Source: Acidimicrobiaceae bacterium (GTDB lineage Bacteria > Actinomycetota > Acidimicrobiia > Actinomarinales > Actinomarinaceae). Taken from it: a DNA stretch of 43,940 bases. Below are positions 1,878-9,988 of this stretch, piece by piece (position 1 is the stretch's first letter; each line of letters begins with the position of its first letter). Position numbers and translations under genes: made by a program. The notes beneath the pieces are model-generated. The model was not told the DNA's origin. It saw only the letters and a list, made by a program, of their open reading frames with translations, and ran no database searches. The stretch covers positions 1 through 43,940 of the forward strand of contig JAOMBT010000005.1 of NCBI GenBank assembly GCA_028344675.1. Reading direction: 5' to 3'.

Positions 1878-2338
1878 AAATTTTGATTCCAGGTTCATTT
1901 GATCCGCCAACTAATGGCCACATAGACGTAATTAACAGGTGTTCTAAAATTTTCTCCGAAATTATAGTTGGTGTAGTTGTTAATCCTTCTAAAGATTCAT
2001 TATTTACTCGTAATGAAAGGTCAGAGATGTTAGAAAATATATTTCAAGAAAAAGAAAATATCAAAGTTGAAAGTTTTGAAGGGCTTTTAGTCGATTTTGC
2101 TTCAAAAAATAGTGTTGATGCAATTGTTAAAGGTTTACGAGCAATGACAGATTTCGATTATGAATTCCAAATGGCACAAGCAAACTCAACGCTCGCTGGA
2201 TATGAGACTATTTTTATACCATCTTCACCTGAGTATGGATATTTATCAAGTTCTATGGTTAAAGAAATCCACTCATATGGAGGAGATGTTTCTTCACTTG
2301 TTCCGTCAGAAGTATTAAAAAGCTTAAAAAATGAGTAG
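1874..2338 (+). CDS. coaD: Phosphopantetheine adenylyltransferase
   Basis: PGSFDPPTNGH (HxGH-like), KGLRAMTDFDYEFQMA and SSSMVKEI motifs; canonical position after rsmD. Confidence 0.96.
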   Translation: MKILIPGSFDPPTNGHIDVINRCSKIFSEIIVGVVVNPSKDSLFTRNERSEMLENIFQEKENIKVESFEGLLVDFASKNSVDAIVKGLRAMTDFDYEFQMAQANSTLAGYETIFIPSSPEYGYLSSSMVKEIHSYGGDVSSLVPSEVLKSLKNE

Positions 2339-2837
2339 TTCTGATATTAATTTTGAGAATGTTATTAAGGGGAATAAGTCTCTCAATATTGTTGATAAAC
2401 TCGAAGAGTTAAGAACACAATTAAATTCTAATTCTTTAAAAGGTAGGATTAATAAAAAAGAAATAGTCAAAAGCATTGATGAAATTATTGATTCAGTTCC
2501 TGTAGAAATGAGAACAGCACGTTGGATAGTTAGGGAACAAGAAAGTTTTATCAACCAGGCAAAGCAAGAATCTAAGAATTTAGTTAACGATGCTAAAATT
2601 GAATCTGAAAAACTTATTGCCAATTCATACGTTTTACAAGAAGCTGTTATCGAGGCTAATGCTCTTATTAAACAAGCTGAAGTTGAAACTCAGGCTTATA
2701 GGGCTAATATTGAAGACACAATTGATCAAAAAATTGAAGATATCCAATCAAAAATTCAGCAAATGGCGAATTTTCTTGAAATTGAAAAAAACAAACTAAG
2801 AGAACCAAGAAATATTGATAAGCCTCCAAAATTATGA
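2331..2837 (+). CDS. Coiled-coil protein, probable SepIVA/DivIVA-like family
   Basis: Helical heptad-rich sequence (VPVEMRTARWIVREQESFINQAKQE), located between coaD and DUF177 as in the actinobacterial coaD-sepIVA-DUF177-rpmF-rnc order. Confidence 0.6.
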   Translation: MSSSDINFENVIKGNKSLNIVDKLEELRTQLNSNSLKGRINKKEIVKSIDEIIDSVPVEMRTARWIVREQESFINQAKQESKNLVNDAKIESEKLIANSYVLQEAVIEANALIKQAEVETQAYRANIEDTIDQKIEDIQSKIQQMANFLEIEKNKLREPRNIDKPPKL

Positions 2838-3539: not shown

Positions 3540-4511
3540 ATGAATACTATTGCTGTAGATGCAATGGGTGGAGACTCAGCTCCAGTTGATATAGTCAAAG
3601 GAGCTATCAAAGCAAAACAACTTGGTGTAAATGTTGTTTTATGTGGTGATAAAAACTTAATTAATCCATATTTAGACAATGTAGAAATACCTATATTTCA
3701 TTATCCACAAGTTATTTCTATGGATGAAGATCCAATGAAGGCAATAAGATCAAAAAAACAAGCTTCAATAATTGGATGTATGCAATTATTGAAGCAAAAT
3801 AAAGTACAAGCAGTCTTTTCTGCTGGCTCAACAGGCGCAACATTATTAAGTGCTATTTCTACTCTTGGCAAGCAAAAAGGAATCATTAGACCAGCAATAG
3901 CTTCGGTCCTCCCTACACTTGATGGAGGTATAGTCTTATTAGATTCAGGTGCAAGTCTAGATGTAAAGCCAAAAATATTATTCCAATATGGAGTTATGGG
4001 AGCTAAGTTAGCTGAAATTTTATTTAATAAGTCAAATCCCAAAGTAGGTCTTTTAAACAATGGAGAAGAGGATACTAAAGGACGAGATGTCGAGAAAATG
4101 GCTTATAAACTTCTTAAAAGTAGTAATTTAAATTTTGTTGGCAATATAGAGGGTAGAGATTTTGCTACAGGTAAAGCAGATGTATTTGTGACAGATGGTT
4201 TCACTGGAAATATTGTTTTAAAAACTATGGAGGGAACCGCAAAACTGCAATCAAAGTTAATCTCAAAGTCTCTAAAAGATAATTTATTTAAACCTTTATT
4301 ACCTGCAGTTAAAAAGGCATTTCAGCCCGCAAAAGATATATTAAATCCAGATAAGACAAATGCTTCTTACTTGCTTGGAGTAAATGGTGTTGTAACTATT
4401 GGCCATGGTTCATCTAATGGTGAGGCCGTTAAAAATGCAATTATTTACACTAATAATTCAGTTAATAAAGAATTTATAAGTGATTTCACTTCTGAAATAG
4501 AAATATCGTGA
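3540..4511 (+). CDS. plsX: Phosphate acyltransferase PlsX
   Basis: IAVDAMGGD, SAGSTGA, RPAIA, LLNNGEEDTKG, NIEG, DGFTGNIVLKTMEG and GHGSS motifs. Confidence 0.95.
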   Translation: MNTIAVDAMGGDSAPVDIVKGAIKAKQLGVNVVLCGDKNLINPYLDNVEIPIFHYPQVISMDEDPMKAIRSKKQASIIGCMQLLKQNKVQAVFSAGSTGATLLSAISTLGKQKGIIRPAIASVLPTLDGGIVLLDSGASLDVKPKILFQYGVMGAKLAEILFNKSNPKVGLLNNGEEDTKGRDVEKMAYKLLKSSNLNFVGNIEGRDFATGKADVFVTDGFTGNIVLKTMEGTAKLQSKLISKSLKDNLFKPLLPAVKKAFQPAKDILNPDKTNASYLLGVNGVVTIGHGSSNGEAVKNAIIYTNNSVNKEFISDFTSEIEIS

Positions 4512-5185
4512 ATAATTTAGGCAACTTGGAAAAGCAAATAGGATATAAATTTAAAAATATTACATTATTAAAAATTGCGCTTACACATAAATCTTATTTA
4601 GATGAGAAACCAGAACTAATGTCTAATCAGAGGTATGAATTTTTTGGTGATGCGATTCTTGATTTTGATTTAACCGAATATTTATTTGATAATTATCCAG
4701 ATTTGGATGAGGGAAGTCTTACTAAAATTAGATCAAGTGCAGTAAATCAATTTAACCTAGTTAAAATTGGTAAAAAAATTAATATTGGTAATTTTCTTTA
4801 TCTTAGTAAAGCAGAGGATTCAACTGGAGGTAGAAGTAAAGATTCAATTATTGAAGATGCTGTTGAGGCGCTTATCGCATCTCTTTATTTTGATGGAGGG
4901 TTAAAGGCAGTAAATAATTTTGTATCTATTTTTATTTATCCAAGTATTCAAGAGCTATCTGAAAACCCTGGACAAAAAGATTATAAAACGAGATTACAAG
5001 AGCATTACGCAAAACAAGGCAAAAAAGTAAACTACGAAGATCAATCAAGTGGACCTGATCATGATAAAAATTTTCACACTGAAGTTTTCTTAAATGACGA
5101 ATTAATAGGATCAGGAATAGGTAAGTCTAAAAAAGCATCTCAACAGGCGGCAGCTAAAAATGCACTAAGTAAAACAAATGCCTGA
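4508..5185 (+). CDS. rnc: Ribonuclease III
   Basis: RNase III signature QRYEFFGDAIL, acidic EDAVEA, C-terminal dsRBD (DYKTRLQE ... GKSKKASQQAAA). GTG start overlaps the plsX stop. Confidence 0.96.
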   Translation: MNNLGNLEKQIGYKFKNITLLKIALTHKSYLDEKPELMSNQRYEFFGDAILDFDLTEYLFDNYPDLDEGSLTKIRSSAVNQFNLVKIGKKINIGNFLYLSKAEDSTGGRSKDSIIEDAVEALIASLYFDGGLKAVNNFVSIFIYPSIQELSENPGQKDYKTRLQEHYAKQGKKVNYEDQSSGPDHDKNFHTEVFLNDELIGSGIGKSKKASQQAAAKNALSKTNA

Positions 5186-5981
5186 GCTACCTGAAGTTGA
5201 GTCAATAAAGAAAATTGTTTCCCCAGTATTTATTGGCCAAAAGTTAATTAAATATTCTGTTAATGATGAAAGAACAAATAGATTCAATACTGCTAATCCC
5301 AGAAATTTAGGAGTTTTATTAGATGTATCTAGGAAAGGGAAAGTGTTAGATTTTACATTTAATGACTATTCAATTTTTTTCCATTTAGGTATGAGTGGAA
5401 GAATAGATATTAATAGTAAAACAAATAAACACACAAGGGCAGAATTTATATTCAATAAAGATTGTTTATTTTTTGATGATATAAGAAAATTCGGATATAT
5501 AAAATTTACTTCAAATCAGTTAAAGGATGAACTCTTGCAATTGATAGGACCTGATATATTGGAATTATCTATCGAAAATAAAAGAAATATACTAAAGAAA
5601 GGACAAAACTCAAAAGTAACTATTAAAAATTTTTTACTAAATCAAAAAAACATGAGTGGACTAGGGAATATTTACGTTAATGAAGTTTTACACAAAGCAA
5701 ACATACACCCTCTTTCTTCTACAGAGAAGTTAAATAAAAACCATTGGAAAAGAATTTTTCTATATTCAAAAAAAGTTTTAACTTTAGCTATTAACAATAA
5801 TGGAACAACACTTGATGATATGACTTACTTTCTTCCAAATGGTAGTTATGGATCAAATCAAAAATTTTTAAATATTTACAATAAAAATACTTGCAATAAA
5901 TGCAAAAATAAAATTGATAAACTGTATATTGATAACAGATCAAGTTATGTATGTAAAAAATGTCAATTCCTAATAAATTAA
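5178..5981 (+). CDS. mutM: Formamidopyrimidine-DNA glycosylase
   Basis: MPELPEVE N-terminus, HLGMSG, H2TH motif GLGNIYVNE, and C-terminal zinc finger CNKC...RSSYVCKKCQ. Confidence 0.95.
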   Translation: MPELPEVESIKKIVSPVFIGQKLIKYSVNDERTNRFNTANPRNLGVLLDVSRKGKVLDFTFNDYSIFFHLGMSGRIDINSKTNKHTRAEFIFNKDCLFFDDIRKFGYIKFTSNQLKDELLQLIGPDILELSIENKRNILKKGQNSKVTIKNFLLNQKNMSGLGNIYVNEVLHKANIHPLSSTEKLNKNHWKRIFLYSKKVLTLAINNNGTTLDDMTYFLPNGSYGSNQKFLNIYNKNTCNKCKNKIDKLYIDNRSSYVCKKCQFLIN

Positions 5982-6907
5982 ATGTCGAACTTTTTAGAGA
6001 TGGAAATTTAGAATCTAATCATATTGTCAATTTTTATAATTTAAAATCTAATTCAGATGATTATTTTTTTCCAAGGTCATCAGTAAAACCTTTTCAGATA
6101 CTTCCTCTTCTTTATAAATTAAGTGATCAAAACGAAATCAATATAACTGATGAGGAAATTGCGCTATTTGCTTCGTCTCACTCAGGTGAAGAATTACATA
6201 CGGACCTTATATTAAAAACTTCTGAAAAATATAATCTCAATCTCGAGTTTTTAACTTGTGGTGCTCAACGACCATTTCATGATAAAACTGCTGATCGAAT
6301 TCTAAATTTTAATAATAAATTTTTAAGAATTCATAACAATTGTTCAGGCAAGCATTTATCGATGTTACTTTATTCAAAGGTATTAAATGTAGATTTTCAA
6401 AATTACTACAAAATTGATCACAAATCACAAACTAACATTAATAAATTTTTTCATGAAATATTTCAAACAAAAGATATTACCTATGGCATTGATGGATGTG
6501 GACTTCCAGCAATCAGGCTAAAAGCTTCACATTTTATTGACTCAATTAACTATATTAAAAATTCAAAATATAATGAATTATGGAATAGAGTATTTAACGC
6601 ATATGTTCGTTTTCCTGAGATAATCGGTGGCACAAATAGAGCTGATACTAATTTAATCAAAAATTCAAATTCGCCTTTGTTAGCTAAATCCGGTGCTGAA
6701 GGTGTTATGTTTGTTACTAATAATAATCAGTCTTTTTTATTTAAGTGCTTGGATGGTAGTAAGAGGGGAGTTGATTTAGCATCTTCATACTACTTAAAAA
6801 GCATCGGACTTGTTAATAGCTCACCATTTGAATCTCAAGTAGACCTTTATTCTATGAATCGACAAAATAACAAAGCTGTAGAAATTAAGATTAGTAAAAA
6901 TTTCTGA
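5960..6907 (+). CDS. L-asparaginase II (Rhizobium-type, class 3) family protein
   Basis: RSSVKPFQ (S-x-x-K), SHSGEELH, HNNCSGKH, DGCG and AKSGAEG motifs. Confidence 0.85.
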   Translation: MSIPNKLNVELFRDGNLESNHIVNFYNLKSNSDDYFFPRSSVKPFQILPLLYKLSDQNEINITDEEIALFASSHSGEELHTDLILKTSEKYNLNLEFLTCGAQRPFHDKTADRILNFNNKFLRIHNNCSGKHLSMLLYSKVLNVDFQNYYKIDHKSQTNINKFFHEIFQTKDITYGIDGCGLPAIRLKASHFIDSINYIKNSKYNELWNRVFNAYVRFPEIIGGTNRADTNLIKNSNSPLLAKSGAEGVMFVTNNNQSFLFKCLDGSKRGVDLASSYYLKSIGLVNSSPFESQVDLYSMNRQNNKAVEIKISKNF

Positions 6908-6962: not shown

Positions 6963-9608
6963 ATGTATTTAAAATCATTAGATATTAATGGGTTTAAGTC
7001 TTTTTCAGAAAAGACTATTATTGATTTCTCAAACGAAGTCAATGTTATTGTAGGCCCAAATGGTTCAGGTAAATCAAACGTAGTTGATGCTATTTCATGG
7101 GTTCTTGGTACGCAAAGCCCAGCAACACTAAGAACAAATAAAATGGAAGATGTAATATTTGCAGGTACCGAAAAATTATCAGCAAAAGGATATTCTGAAG
7201 TTTATTTAAATTTTGAAGTTGACGAAAAATTATTTAATGGAAATAGTGAAATTTCAATTGGCAGAAAGCTATTTAGAGATGGAACTTCAGAATATTTTAT
7301 GAATGGATTAAATTGCAGGCTACTTGATATCCAAGAATTTCTAAATGATGTTGGTATAGGTAAACAGCAGCACATTATAATTTCACAAGGGCAAATAGCT
7401 GAAATATTAAATTCTAAACCCGAAGACCACAGACTTACAATAGAAGAAGCAGCTGGAATTCTTCCACTTAGATCGAAGAAAGAAAAATCCTTAAAAAGAA
7501 TTGAATCTGGAGAAAAAGAAATTAAAAGAGCTAAAGATGTTTTAAGAGAAATTAAAAAACAATTGAAACCATTAAGAGAGCAAGCTGAACAGGCTCGTAT
7601 TCATGAAGAAAAAACAAATTTGCTTAAAATAAAGATGGTTGAATTAAATATTCTTTTATTTAAGAAATATAAAAATTTAGATAACCAACAAGATACACAT
7701 GAGAAAGAAATTAACAATTCCTTAAATATTATAGATAAAAAGATTTTAGACTTGAAAAATCAAAAAAGTAAGATAAATACTGAGCTTGGGGACGGTGTTT
7801 CAATAGGTTCAACTTTAAAAGACTACTCATCAAAATTTTTAAACATATCGGAACAGCTTAGGTCAATTGCCCAAGTTGCTAGTGAAAGAAAAGATAATTT
7901 AGAAAGAGATGAGATTAAAACAGTTGAAGAATTATCTAAGATTAACAAAAAAATTAAAGTAAATTCTGAACAAATTTCAAATCTTTCATCACAATTAATT
8001 TCTAAAAAATTAGTATTAGGTTCACTCCAAGAAACATATAAACAAATTAAATTTCAATTAGAAGATATAATTAAGAAGCTTTCGGCCTCTACTGAGGTAA
8101 ATGAAGCACTTCTTCAAAGCGAGATAAGCCAGCTAAATAATAGTATCTCTGATACAACTGTTAATTTAAATAATTTGAATTCTGATTTAAAAAAATGGGA
8201 AAATGACTTATCAGAATCAGAAAAGTTGATTGATAATATCAATGATGAAATTTTTAGTAGTGATATTATTCTTGAAAGTGTACCCCAATTAATTAATAAA
8301 ACTAAATCTATTTTAAATAGAGAAGTTTTTATTAATAGCAATAAATTAACTGAAAAAGAAAATTCCCATAAAGATTTAGTTCAAGAATTAACTATAAAAG
8401 AAAATCTATTAGACAGTCTCAATGAAAATGAACAATTTAAAAAAGATATTAATAATCAAAAAAAAGAATTTGAAGATCAAATAATTCAAATTGAAAATGA
8501 AATTAGTGCAGTTTCTAACCAACTCATATCATCACAGGAAAGAATTAAATCGTTAACAGAACAAAATGACGATCTTAATAAAATTAAGAACGAAATTTCT
8601 CTTAAATCATCTGATGTAAATATAAATAATCTTTCTAATTTAATAAACTCAACAAAGTTATTTATTGAGTTTTCAAATAAAACATCTGATACATTAGAAA
8701 CAAAAGCTTTATATTTTGATGATAAATATGGAAATTCAAATAAAAAGATAACAACAATTGATGAACAAATAGATAATTTGAACAAGGAATATTTCAGCTT
8801 CAAAGAGTCCTTAACCAATATTGCTATAAAGAGATCAGAGTACAATACTTCTAAATCTCAACATTATTCAAACTTAACAAATATTTATGGTTTAACAATT
8901 GAAGAAATAAATAATTATTATCTTGAAAATGAAAGTCAGGAGATACTCCATAATGAAATTAAGGCTATTGAACACATGTTAGAAGAGATTGGTACGGTTA
9001 ATTACTTAGCAAAAGAAGATTATGAATCATTAAACAACAGATTTGAAGATATAACTTCTACAATTGAAGATTTAAGTTTAGCTAAAAAGGAATTATTAGA
9101 GAATATAAATGAAATTGAAAAAGAAATAGAATTTCAAATTGAATCTTCTTTTAATTCTATATCGGTTCATTTTTCTGAAATTTTTGAAACATTATTTCCA
9201 GGAGGAAATGGTTCTCTTTCTTTCACAGATAAATCTAATATACTTGAAACAGGTATTGAAATATCAGTACAGCCAAGAGGTAAAAAAATTAAAAAATTAA
9301 GTTTATTATCTGGTGGAGAACGCTCCTTAGCAGCTATAGCTTTTCTTTTTTCAATTTTTAAATCATTTCCTAGTCCTTTTTACATATTAGATGAAGTTGA
9401 AGCTGCATTAGATGATGCTAATTTACACCGTATGATTAATTTACTTAAACATGTAAAAAATGATGCACAATATATTATTGTTACACATCAACAACAAACA
9501 ATGCATGCTGGAGATATATTGTATGGAGTAACAATGGAACCTGGCTCTGGATCTAGAGTATTTACAAAAACCAAAAAAGATTTTGAAAGTATGATTAATA
9601 CTAAATGA
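6963..9608 (+). CDS. smc: Chromosome segregation protein Smc, short form with no recognisable hinge
   Basis: GFKSF, Walker A GPNGSGKSN, Q-loop ISQGQI, IEEAAG, joint-like IGTVNYLAKEDY, signature LSGGE, and Walker B/D-loop ILDEVEAALD. Confidence 0.9.
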   Translation: MYLKSLDINGFKSFSEKTIIDFSNEVNVIVGPNGSGKSNVVDAISWVLGTQSPATLRTNKMEDVIFAGTEKLSAKGYSEVYLNFEVDEKLFNGNSEISIGRKLFRDGTSEYFMNGLNCRLLDIQEFLNDVGIGKQQHIIISQGQIAEILNSKPEDHRLTIEEAAGILPLRSKKEKSLKRIESGEKEIKRAKDVLREIKKQLKPLREQAEQARIHEEKTNLLKIKMVELNILLFKKYKNLDNQQDTHEKEINNSLNIIDKKILDLKNQKSKINTELGDGVSIGSTLKDYSSKFLNISEQLRSIAQVASERKDNLERDEIKTVEELSKINKKIKVNSEQISNLSSQLISKKLVLGSLQETYKQIKFQLEDIIKKLSASTEVNEALLQSEISQLNNSISDTTVNLNNLNSDLKKWENDLSESEKLIDNINDEIFSSDIILESVPQLINKTKSILNREVFINSNKLTEKENSHKDLVQELTIKENLLDSLNENEQFKKDINNQKKEFEDQIIQIENEISAVSNQLISSQERIKSLTEQNDDLNKIKNEISLKSSDVNINNLSNLINSTKLFIEFSNKTSDTLETKALYFDDKYGNSNKKITTIDEQIDNLNKEYFSFKESLTNIAIKRSEYNTSKSQHYSNLTNIYGLTIEEINNYYLENESQEILHNEIKAIEHMLEEIGTVNYLAKEDYESLNNRFEDITSTIEDLSLAKKELLENINEIEKEIEFQIESSFNSISVHFSEIFETLFPGGNGSLSFTDKSNILETGIEISVQPRGKKIKKLSLLSGGERSLAAIAFLFSIFKSFPSPFYILDEVEAALDDANLHRMINLLKHVKNDAQYIIVTHQQQTMHAGDILYGVTMEPGSGSRVFTKTKKDFESMINTK

Positions 9609-9988
9609 ATAATGACCAATTAGCCGACTTGGCAAAAGACATAGCCACTAAAGCATATGCACCTTATTCAAATTTTAGGGTAGGAGCAGCATTAATTACT
9701 GATTCTGGAAATGTATATACGGGATGTAATATTGAAAATGCATCATACCCAGCTTCAGTTTGTGCTGAAGATGTGGCTGTAGTAAAAGCAATATCTGAAG
9801 GTGAAGAGAAAATTAATACAATTGCTGTAGCGTGCATTGATGCAGAATCAGACACGGCCATTTTTCCATGTGGAATTTCAAGACAAAGACTTGCAGAGTT
9901 TGATACTGAATTTGTTCTAGTTGTAGACAAAACAGGTTATAAAACTTATAAATTTGAAGAGATATTGCCTTATAATTTTAAATTTTAA
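9605..9988 (+). CDS. cdd: Cytidine deaminase (tetrameric type) with atypical Zn motif
   Basis: AYAPYSNFRVGAAL, GCNIENASY, CAE and PCG..RQ motifs; the third Zn Cys is replaced by Ser. Confidence 0.85.
   Translation: MNNDQLADLAKDIATKAYAPYSNFRVGAALITDSGNVYTGCNIENASYPASVCAEDVAVVKAISEGEEKINTIAVACIDAESDTAIFPCGISRQRLAEFDTEFVLVVDKTGYKTYKFEEILPYNFKF

What the first reader, a model, noticed from the sequence alone, without database searches (positions are those of the whole stretch)
6963..9608. Hinge-less Smc: intact ATPase heads joined by an uninterrupted coiled coil
Seen: one unbroken 881-aa ORF with every Smc head motif and the joint-like GTVNYLAKEDY. Between about residues 170 and 745 there is only low-Gly heptad sequence, with no Gly-rich GX6GX3GG hinge motif, no globular beta-rich segment, and no CxxC zinc hook. 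After P203 the only proline in this stretch is P441 (8283-8285), near the arm midpoint, a plausible fold-back apex. Known: bacterial Smc is about 1150-1200 aa and dimerises through the hinge to form the DNA-entrapping ring. Inference: either a new dimerisation mode (RecN-like apex contact) or a hinge-independent minimal condensin.
Basis: partly seen in the sequence, partly recalled or inferred. Interest (0 to 1): 0.8.

Follow-up and report, generated by a model that had tools for sequence, protein, structure and literature searches.

The report
Hinge-less Smc of marine Actinomarinales
This is the chromosome-folding ATPase Smc of the abundant ocean bacterium Candidatus Actinomarina, which has lost its central "hinge" dimerisation domain; the oddity was reported from ocean metagenomes in 2025, and how such a protein still holds DNA is unsolved.

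Summary
ORF 6963..9608 (+) encodes an 881-aa Smc with all ATPase head motifs. The middle is only an antiparallel coiled coil: no SMC_hinge, no zinc hook, one Cys, and one Pro after P203.

It is not an assembly artefact. End-to-end 879-891-aa homologues occur in 63 of 65 genomes of the order Ca. Actinomarinales, down to 48% identity. The gene is single-copy, sits in the rnc-fpg-x-smc position, and is under purifying selection (dN/dS 0.10-0.15).

Against full-length Acidimicrobiia Smc, the whole hinge is deleted, plus very roughly 70-100 residues from each arm strand. Arms of about 270 aa remain.

The hinge is missing from every Actinomarinales genome searched. It is present in 235 of 238 other high-quality genomes of the class, and the three exceptions are explained.

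The partners survive. scpA-scpB is present in 12/12 high-quality genomes of the order and parB in 63/65.

The apex is the fastest-evolving part, and I found no dedicated dimerisation module.

The phenomenon is already published as abundant "hinge-less SMC" from Tara Oceans (PMC12153180). That paper did not name the lineage or analyse partners. The mechanism remains open.

The parts
6963..9608 (+). smc gene, 881 aa plus stop: hinge-less Smc orthologue
   Evidence: ORF. TIGR02168 scores 627.7 bits, above the cut-off of 567. Best PDB sequence matches are B. subtilis-type Smc heads: 5XG3 at 4e-106 and 3ZGX.
6963..7460 (+). N-terminal half of the ATPase head (residues 1-166). Includes Walker A at 7053-7076 and the Q-loop SQGQ at 7383-7394.
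   Evidence: Motif positions. Nearly invariant across 13 Actinomarinales sequences. dN/dS 0.01-0.03.
7461..8258 (+). N-terminal coiled-coil strand (residues 167-432)
   Evidence: AF2 helices 167-273, 282-374 and 377-432. dN/dS about 0.09-0.11 for residues 166-400.
8196..8207 (+). W412-x-x-D415, a conserved pair about 20 residues below the apex. The Trp is also present in hinge-bearing relatives.
   Evidence: D415 is invariant and W412 near-invariant. The Trp aligns with W in L027, L028, L030 and L034.
8259..8279 (+). Predicted fold-back turn (residues 433-439, SSDIILE). The hinge would sit just after this region in canonical Smc.
   Evidence: Only non-helical stretch at the arm midpoint in the AF2 model; pLDDT about 64. 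Highest sequence entropy of the protein.
8310..8327 (+). Conserved motif phi-phi-x-R-E-phi (residues 450-455, ILNREV). It lies immediately before the position where the 154-column hinge gap opens, after residue 454.
   Evidence: R453 and E454 are invariant in 13 sequences down to 46% identity. Gap position.
8280..9098 (+). C-terminal coiled-coil strand (residues 440-712). Includes the C-terminal part of the Smc joint (about residues 615-704, nt 8805-9074, with GTVNYLAKEDY at 677-687).
   Evidence: AF2 helices 440-487, 489-546, 551-588, 596-641, 646-650, 659-676 and 683-744. The B. subtilis joint C-part, residues 922-1011, splits into four helices (PMC5526789). The offset of 307 comes from S1090 = S783 and E1118 = E811.
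9099..9605 (+). C-terminal half of the ATPase head (residues 713-881). Signature LSGGE at 9306-9320, Walker B/D-loop at 9384-9413, H-loop THQ at 9483-9491.
   Evidence: Nearly invariant. dN/dS about 0.02-0.03.
4508..6907 (+). Upstream context: rnc (4508-5185), fpg/mutM (5178-5981) and an L-asparaginase II family gene (5960-6907)
   Evidence: Pfam hits Ribonuclease_3 plus dsrm, Fapy_DNA_glyco plus H2TH, and Asparaginase_II. Further upstream are plsX, yceD, coaD, rsmD and recG.
9605..9988 (+). Downstream gene overlapping the smc stop codon: cytidine deaminase
   Evidence: Pfam dCMP_cyt_deam_1 and dCMP_cyt_deam_2.

Best explanation
This is the single, orthologous Smc of Candidatus Actinomarinales. 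An ancestral deletion removed the whole hinge domain and trimmed the hinge-proximal coiled coil. Each protomer is now an ATPase head on a hairpin arm of about 270 residues.

It most likely still acts as the ATPase of an Smc-ScpAB condensin loaded by ParB/parS.

Shown here:
- The heads and the joint region are intact and strongly constrained.
- Arm length is almost fixed across the order.
- scpA, scpB and parB are retained in the lineage.

Inferred, not shown:
- Two protomers are joined at the head end by ATP-dependent head engagement. The ScpA bridge (neck of one Smc, cap of the other) also joins them there.
- Along the arms they are held by lateral arm-to-arm zipping into a rod, not by a constitutive dimerisation domain.
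- The far end of the Smc compartment would therefore be closed only non-covalently and transiently. DNA would be held mainly in the kleisin compartment and on the engaged heads.
For: Orthology:
- TIGR02168 equivalog score is above its cut-off.
- The best solved relatives are bacterial Smc heads.
- Synteny is rnc-fpg-x-smc.
- There is one copy per genome.

Lineage-wide and old:
- 63/65 genomes have an end-to-end homologue of 879-891 aa at 48-100% identity.

Selection:
- dN/dS is 0.10-0.15 overall, 0.01-0.03 in the heads and about 0.09-0.24 in the arms.

Partners:
- ScpA is in 54/65 genomes and ScpB in 53/65, adjacent to each other, and 12/12 in high-quality genomes.
- ParB is in 63/65, including this genome.
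- All four genes lie on the one-contig genome G009.

Hinge loss is clade-specific:
- No genome of the order searched has it: 0/37 of the genus and 0/12 high-quality Actinomarina genomes.
- It is present in 235/238 other high-quality Acidimicrobiia. The three exceptions are two genes cut by contig ends and one 1115-aa Smc.

Experimental precedent:
- In B. subtilis, arm-arm association contributes considerably to dimerisation when the hinge is mutated (PMC4785775; PMC5526789).
- The hinge fold can be replaced by a Rad50 zinc hook.
- Arms of 253-267 aa form a second functional length regime (PMC5344682). The arms here are about 262-277 aa by homologous boundaries.
Against: - Engineered B. subtilis Smc(deltaH) is expressed but fails to localise to the chromosome unless it carries the EQ mutation (PMC4785775). 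A hinge-less Smc is therefore not expected to work without some compensation, and I could not identify any.
- ScpA (232-247 aa), ScpB (about 177-201 aa) and ParB (about 265-277 aa) have ordinary lengths with no extra domain.
- No dimer could be modelled, because the tools fold single chains only.
- scpA and scpB were not found in the window's own genome, which is only 71% complete.
- My arm-length estimate straddles the upper edge of the published functional window. It depends on boundary mapping good to about +/-10 residues.
Confidence: 0.6

Rival explanations
1. Same complex, but dimerisation is through a specific apex contact. Two hairpin tips would pack, RecN-like or as a short four-helix bundle. 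The contact would use the few conserved distal residues: W412, D415 and the phi-phi-x-R453-E454-phi motif. The apex would then be a minimal replacement hinge.
For: R453, E454 and D415 are invariant, and W412 nearly so, inside an otherwise very variable region. In the hairpin they face each other 15-25 residues below the turn (register). Residues 421-440 have the highest hydrophobic fraction of the distal arm, 0.38. There are almost no indels around the apex across 46-89% identity. In B. subtilis the fold of the dimerisation module is irrelevant (PMC5344682).
Against: The apex is the least constrained segment (dN/dS 0.22-0.38; entropy maximum at residues 421-480). Conserved hydrophobic positions follow only a two-strand a/d pattern with no extra stripe. 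W412 is inherited from hinge-bearing relatives. No dimer model was possible.
Confidence: 0.25
2. The protein no longer forms a closed ring at all. It would act as an ATP-gated DNA clamp or bridge, either single-armed or dimerised only at the heads, with or without ScpAB. Its role would be reduced or altered in a 1-Mb genome, with hinge loss as part of genome streamlining.
For: No dimerisation module is detectable. Actinomarinales are extremely streamlined (PMC7771536). In B. subtilis the hinge and distal two-thirds of the arm are dispensable for parS targeting of Smc(EQ) (PMC4785775).
Against: Arm length and register are tightly conserved (879-891 aa, few indels). That is hard to explain if the arm were only a spacer. 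scpAB is retained. Single-armed hinge mutants are defective in B. subtilis.
Confidence: 0.12
3. Artefact or non-orthologue. Options are a collapsed assembly, a decaying pseudogene, or an SMC-like paralogue such as RecN, SbcC/Rad50, Lamassu LmuB or Wadjet JetC.
For: The protein is short and has no hinge. PADLOC models for SMC-like defence ATPases give generic head hits: mad3 197 bits, LmuB 88 bits.
Against: The same length appears on many independent contigs and in 63/65 genomes. The frame is intact and under purifying selection. recN scores 38.5 against a cut-off of 407.85, Rad50/SbcC models score at most 69 against 478-1087, and JetC scores 31 bits. The gene is in the housekeeping position. 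No second smc exists.
Confidence: 0.03

Closest known systems
"Hinge-less SMC" cluster from Tara Oceans OM-RGC (Environ Microbiome 2025;20:65, PMC12153180; preprint 10.1101/2024.01.08.574615)
   Same: Marine and very abundant. Actinobacterial. SMC heads plus an antiparallel coiled coil. No hinge and no CXXC. Not co-occurring with a regular smc. Homologues 88% identical to this protein carry Tara source labels. This is almost certainly the same clade, but that is an inference: the paper's supplements hold ids only.
   Different: The paper left the host as an 'unknown lineage within Actinobacteria' and still weighed a paralogue. It did not examine ScpA, ScpB, ParB, synteny, deletion boundaries, arm length or selection. 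Here the host is the whole order Ca. Actinomarinales, the gene is the sole orthologue, and the partners are retained.
Canonical bacterial Smc of Smc-ScpAB (B. subtilis Smc, 1186 aa; TIGR02168)
   Same: Head motifs and a 45%-identical head fold. Joint region. ScpA, ScpB and ParB partners in the lineage. Genomic position.
   Different: No hinge domain (PF06470 absent). Arms of about 270 residues instead of 344. 305 residues shorter overall.
Engineered B. subtilis variants: Smc(deltaH), Smc(zinc hook) and mini-Smc (PMC4785775, PMC5344682)
   Same: Architecturally a natural Smc(deltaH) combined with a mini-Smc arm length close to the 253-267 aa functional regime.
   Different: The engineered deltaH is non-functional for chromosome association. 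The functional variants keep some dimerisation module, either a hinge or a hook. The natural protein has neither, yet is conserved.
RecN
   Same: SMC-family head on a hinge-less coiled coil. Dimerises through the distal coiled coil (from my own knowledge of the D. radiodurans RecN structure; not tested here).
   Different: RecN is about 550 aa with much shorter arms and has no kleisin partner. The TIGR00634 score is 38.5 against a cut-off of 407.85.
Rad50/SbcC
   Same: Head plus a long antiparallel coiled coil without an SMC hinge.
   Different: Defined by the CxxC zinc hook and an Mre11/SbcD partner. Here there is one Cys in the whole protein, and model scores are far below cut-offs.

Membership tests
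Bacterial Smc (Smc-ScpAB condensin; NCBIfam TIGR02168) | ABC-type SMC head with Walker A, Q-loop, signature LSGGE, Walker B/D-loop and H-loop | tested here: met
   Motifs at residues 31, 141, 782, 808 and 841. Invariant across the order. Best PDB hits are Smc heads.
Bacterial Smc (Smc-ScpAB condensin; NCBIfam TIGR02168) | Whole-protein score above the curated equivalog cut-off | tested here: met
   627.7 bits against a cut-off of 567.35.
Bacterial Smc (Smc-ScpAB condensin; NCBIfam TIGR02168) | Central hinge dimerisation domain (Pfam PF06470) | tested here: not met
   No hit at E<=1 in the protein or in six frames of the genome. 0/37 genomes of the genus have it. There is a 154-column gap against relatives. 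AF2 shows a 7-residue turn. By architecture it is therefore not a canonical SMC; by descent it is the Smc orthologue.
Bacterial Smc (Smc-ScpAB condensin; NCBIfam TIGR02168) | Long intramolecular antiparallel coiled-coil arm with a head-proximal joint | tested here: met
   AF2 is helical from 167 to 744, with breaks at 642-645, 651-658 and 677-682. These match the four-helix C-part of the B. subtilis joint. Foldseek hits 5XEI, an Smc head plus coiled coil plus joint. The model is of moderate confidence.
Bacterial Smc (Smc-ScpAB condensin; NCBIfam TIGR02168) | Kleisin ScpA and kite ScpB encoded in the genome | tested here: inconclusive
   Absent from the window's own 71%-complete assembly. Present and adjacent in 54/65 and 53/65 genomes of the order and in 12/12 high-quality genomes. 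This includes the closest relatives G071 and G072. Physical interaction was not testable.
Bacterial Smc (Smc-ScpAB condensin; NCBIfam TIGR02168) | Single-copy housekeeping gene in the conserved rnc-fpg-smc neighbourhood, with the ParB loader present | tested here: met
   One match per genome. Neighbours identified. ParB_N found at G000:C5 and in 63/65 genomes.
Published 'hinge-less SMC' marine actinobacterial clade (PMC12153180) | SMC heads plus coiled coil, no hinge, no CXXC, marine Actinobacteria, no co-occurring regular smc | tested here: met
   Sequence identity to the paper's OM-RGC entries could not be checked, because the supplements hold ids only.
Rad50/SbcC | CxxC zinc hook at the coiled-coil apex | tested here: not met
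   The only Cys is C118. Rad50/SbcC models score 24-69 bits against cut-offs of 478-1087.
RecN | Score above the TIGR00634 cut-off; protein of about 550 aa | tested here: not met
   38.5 bits against a cut-off of 407.85; the protein is 881 aa.
SMC-like defence ATPases (Lamassu LmuB, Wadjet JetC, Gabija GajA, PtuA) | Specific match beyond the shared head; defence-operon context | tested here: not met
   Hits are mainly to the shared SMC head and coiled-coil scaffold and score well below the Smc model (mad3 197, LmuB 88, JetC 31 bits, against 628 for TIGR02168). The neighbours are housekeeping genes.
Archaea-specific SMC-related proteins (ASRP, hinge-less) | Score above the NF045487 cut-off | tested here: not met
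   58 bits against a cut-off of 300.

The most novel reading that the evidence does not exclude
An entire, globally abundant bacterial order runs its Smc-ScpAB condensin with no dimerisation domain at the far end of the arms. If so, a permanently closed SMC ring is not required for chromosome organisation in vivo. Alternatively, a handful of residues at a bare coiled-coil tip (W412, D415, R453-E454) form a previously unknown minimal hinge substitute.
Probability: 0.35. Interest if true: 0.8.

Novelty: already known. Interest (0 to 1): 0.55.

Why it matters
The hinge is treated as a defining and essential part of SMC proteins. It dimerises the arms, binds DNA, and is proposed as a DNA or obstacle gate. 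In B. subtilis, deleting it abolishes chromosome association.

A natural Smc without it therefore gives a ready-made test. It is kept under selection with its kleisin, kite and loader in one of the most abundant marine bacterial groups. The question it tests is whether ring closure at the hinge is needed for loading, entrapment and loop extrusion.

The existence of the clade is already in the literature. This analysis adds that the host is the order Ca. Actinomarinales and that the gene is the sole orthologue rather than a paralogue. It also adds the following:
- ScpAB and ParB are retained.
- The loss is unique to that order within the class.
- The deletion also shortened the arms to near the short functional length regime.
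- The apex shows no conserved module.

Tried and rejected
- **Hidden hinge.** The Pfam search at E<=1, the six-frame genome search and the AF2 model all found none.
- **Stand-alone hinge gene.** None in this genome at E<=1. None at E<=0.01 in 37 genomes of the genus or in the 12 high-quality genomes of the order.
- **Zinc hook.** Excluded, because the protein has a single Cys.
- **P441 as apex marker.** Not conserved in the order.
- **Assembly collapse.** Rejected from the many independent contigs and genomes.
- **Other hinge-less Smc within Acidimicrobiia.** There were three apparent cases. G058 and G261 have smc cut by contig ends. G100 has an 1115-aa Smc with room for a divergent hinge.
- **Compensating extra domains in ScpA, ScpB or ParB.** Their lengths are ordinary.
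- **Naming the hosts of other short hinge-less SMC representatives.** The listing of cluster members and a second homologue search returned no taxon names.
- **Direct identity with the published OM-RGC cluster.** The supplements hold ids but no sequences.
- **The Actinomarinales genome paper (PMC7771536).** It does not mention smc, hinge, ScpA or ParB.
- **Dimer modelling.** Not possible, because structure prediction folds one chain only.
- **MukBEF/MksBEF absence.** Not specifically tested.
Full report
**1. The observation**

The ORF at 6963..9608 (+) is an unbroken 881-aa frame starting MYLKSLDINGFKSF.

All SMC head motifs are present:
- Walker A at residues 31-38
- Q-loop SQGQ at 141
- signature LSGGE at 782
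- Walker B/D-loop ILDEVEAALD at 808
- H-loop THQ at 841
- GTVNYLAKEDY at 677

- Between P203 and P746 the only proline is P441 (8283-8285).
- There are 8 glycines in residues 170-745.
- The only cysteine in the protein is C118.

Domain searches agree. Pfam reports SMC_N bridging residues 2-859 and no SMC_hinge, even at E<=1. NCBIfam TIGR02168 (SMC_prok_B) scores 627.7 bits, above its equivalog cut-off of 567. The best stretch, residues 2-504, matches profile positions 1-521 of 1181, so the match stops where the hinge would begin.

An AlphaFold2 model was built on a 13-sequence alignment (mean pLDDT 72.6). It is helical from 167 to 744 with a single 7-residue turn at 433-439. It has no beta or globular middle segment.

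Foldseek and phmmer against the PDB return SMC heads and head-plus-coiled-coil constructs. The best phmmer hit is 5XG3 at 4e-106. B. subtilis head fragments are 45% identical. No hinge structures are returned.

**2. Not an artefact; which organism**

The protein collection holds 881-883-aa proteins at 99, 88, 84 and 70% identity. They come from many independent contigs in ENA, JGI, Tara, NCBI and Logan. One is named Candidatus Actinomarina.

In whole genomes, 63 of 65 species of the order have an end-to-end homologue with query coverage 1-879:
- Lengths are 879-891 aa after start-codon choice.
- Identity runs down to 48%, in the second genus (G088).
- One-contig and few-contig genomes are included (G009, G062, G086).

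Each genome has one copy; extra rows are genes split over contig ends.

Pairwise Nei-Gojobori estimates were made for pairs with dS of about 0.37-0.47:

| Region | dN/dS |
|---|---|
| whole gene | 0.10-0.15 |
| heads | 0.01-0.03 |
| arms | about 0.09-0.24 |
| residues 401-480 (apex) | 0.22-0.38 |

**3. What exactly is missing**

I aligned the protein with MAFFT against seven full-length Acidimicrobiia Smc (966-1192 aa). A 154-column gap opens after residue 454. It corresponds to the entire hinge, residues 520-650 of the 1154-aa relative.

Further gaps lie in both arm strands. The larger gaps sum to about 80 columns on the N side and about 100 on the C side. Gap placement inside coiled coil is approximate.

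I anchored the numbering on the B. subtilis mutants S1090 (signature) and E1118 (Walker B), which correspond to S783 and E811 here. With the hinge limits of the published deltaH construct (residues 500-673), the arm strands here are about 262-277 residues. B. subtilis has 344.

Bürmann et al. found function at 344 down to about 321 aa, then a dead zone, then function again at 267-253 aa. That second window lies near a major mode of natural arm lengths (PMC5344682). The Actinomarina arm sits at or just above the upper edge of that second window. My boundary mapping is only good to about +/-10 residues.

Their natural-sequence survey was seeded on hinge alignments, so it could not have seen hinge-less proteins.

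The B. subtilis joint is made of residues 188-253 plus 922-1011, the latter forming four helices (PMC5526789). It maps to residues 615-704 here. AF2 breaks the C strand there at 642-645, 651-658 and 677-682.

**4. Phylogenetic extent of the loss**

PF06470 was searched in six frames.
- 0 of 37 genomes of the genus have it, against 23 of 24 from other families of the class.
- In a wider draw of 250 high-quality Acidimicrobiia genomes, 235 have it. Twelve of the 15 without it are Actinomarina.
- The other three were checked. G058 and G261 have smc cut by a contig end. G100 has an 1115-aa Smc with room for a divergent hinge.

Hinge loss therefore marks the order Actinomarinales. I found no stand-alone hinge gene there.

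**5. Partners and context**

The own assembly (711 kb, 71% complete) lacks ScpA and ScpB hits. Across the order the picture is different:
- Adjacent scpA (232-247 aa) and scpB (about 177-201 aa) genes are present in 54 and 53 of 65 genomes.
- They are present in 12 of 12 high-quality genomes, including the nearest relatives G071 and G072.
- ParB is present in 63 of 65 genomes, including this one at G000:C5.
- None of these partners is unusually long, so I see no added dimerisation domain.

In the window, smc follows recG, rsmD, coaD, an unassigned ORF, yceD, plsX, rnc, fpg and an asparaginase-II gene. It overlaps cdd downstream. From my own knowledge, rnc-fpg-...-smc is the usual actinobacterial position.

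**6. The apex**

Across 13 sequences at 46-89% identity, the distal arm is the most variable part of the protein. Entropy is 2.0-2.3 bits for residues 401-480.

The invariant or near-invariant residues there are few: W412, D415, R453, E454, L476, K479 and K493.
- W412 is shared with hinge-bearing relatives.
- R453-E454 sit in a phi-phi-x-R-E-phi motif directly before the point where the hinge gap opens.
- P441 is Phe in most orthologues.

Conserved hydrophobic positions follow an ordinary two-strand a/d spacing. I see no extra hydrophobic stripe of the kind a four-helix apex bundle would need. Indels around the apex are almost absent.

**7. Mechanism**

Shown: an intact, constrained ATPase head and joint; a length-constrained hairpin arm; no hinge or hook; and retention of kleisin, kite and loader in the lineage.

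Inferred: the protein still works as Smc-ScpAB. The heads are bridged by ATP and by ScpA. The arms are held by lateral rod contacts.

The precedent is experimental. In B. subtilis, coiled coils stay juxtaposed in a sizeable fraction of molecules even with a mutant hinge, no ScpA and disengaged heads. [quoted passage not shown] Replacing the hinge with a Rad50 zinc hook preserves function (PMC5344682).

The same work provides the main counter-evidence. Smc(deltaH) with a wild-type ATPase fails to associate with the chromosome. Some compensation must therefore exist here, and I could not find it.

A specific apex contact through the few conserved distal residues is the main rival. A ring-less clamp or bridge role is the second rival. 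Neither could be tested, because only single chains can be folded with these tools.

**8. Comparison with the literature**

[quoted passage not shown] Its features are:
- "hinge-less" by AlphaFold
- no CXXC
- monophyletic, near the base of Actinobacteria
- about seven times more abundant than other SMC homologues
- not co-occurring with a regular smc in GORG-Tropics genomes

Homologues of this protein carry Tara labels, so this is almost certainly the same clade. The supplements contain only ids, so direct identity could not be checked.

That paper left the host as an unknown lineage. It did not analyse partners, synteny, deletion boundaries or selection.

The Actinomarinales genome paper does not mention smc.

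Earlier first-stage notes of this scan report the same 881-886-aa hinge-less Smc in other genomes. My order-wide search confirms this.

**9. Verdict**

Its existence is already published, so I rate novelty as already known.

Interest stays moderate to high. The mechanism is unresolved. [quoted passage not shown]

Noticed in passing
Proteins P0243, P0288, P0289, P0218, P0206/P0271 (not in the window): This is a second, unrelated set of Pfam-hinge-less SMC proteins of 806-982 aa, with heads that by eye resemble Firmicutes Smc (not tested). Each has a pair of cysteines at about the midpoint of the coiled coil. P0243 has GLRDC-x6-C. P0288 and P0289 have C-x15-C in the same context. P0218 has CDYNC. 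P0206 has C-x6-C. This may be a hook-like or disulfide apex. Host taxa are unknown (Logan and JGI contigs only).
   Followed up: partly
Protein P0125 (838 aa; Logan, 35-kb contig): A high-GC, Acidimicrobiia-like Smc with no Pfam hinge. It is a singleton cluster. It may be an independent hinge loss or an assembly deletion.
   Followed up: no
P0219 (822 aa); Acidimicrobiia family f8 (G044/L032 966 aa, G200, G206, G122): These are natural mini-Smc proteins that keep the hinge but have much shorter arms. P0219 has its hinge at residues 339-449, so its arms are only about 170-190 aa.
   Followed up: no
G100:C1:1572364-1575648 (loci L040, L042): A complete 2.2-Mb Acidimicrobiia genome. Its 1115-aa Smc gives no Pfam SMC_hinge hit at E<=0.01, so the hinge is probably strongly diverged.
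   Followed up: partly
window 2331-2837 (+): A 168-aa ORF between coaD and yceD has no Pfam family at E<=1e-5.
   Followed up: no
window 5960-6907 (+) and 9605-9988 (+): An L-asparaginase II family gene lies between fpg and smc. A cytidine deaminase gene overlaps the smc stop codon (ATGA overlap at 9605-9608). ftsY, the usual downstream neighbour of smc (from memory), does not follow smc here: next come cdd and then opposite-strand genes. The rest of the window was not checked for it.
   Followed up: partly
window 1-43940: The whole window has about 27-36% G+C. GC skew switches sign with coding strand around 10-18 kb, which is consistent with a streamlined low-GC Actinomarina genome.
   Followed up: no
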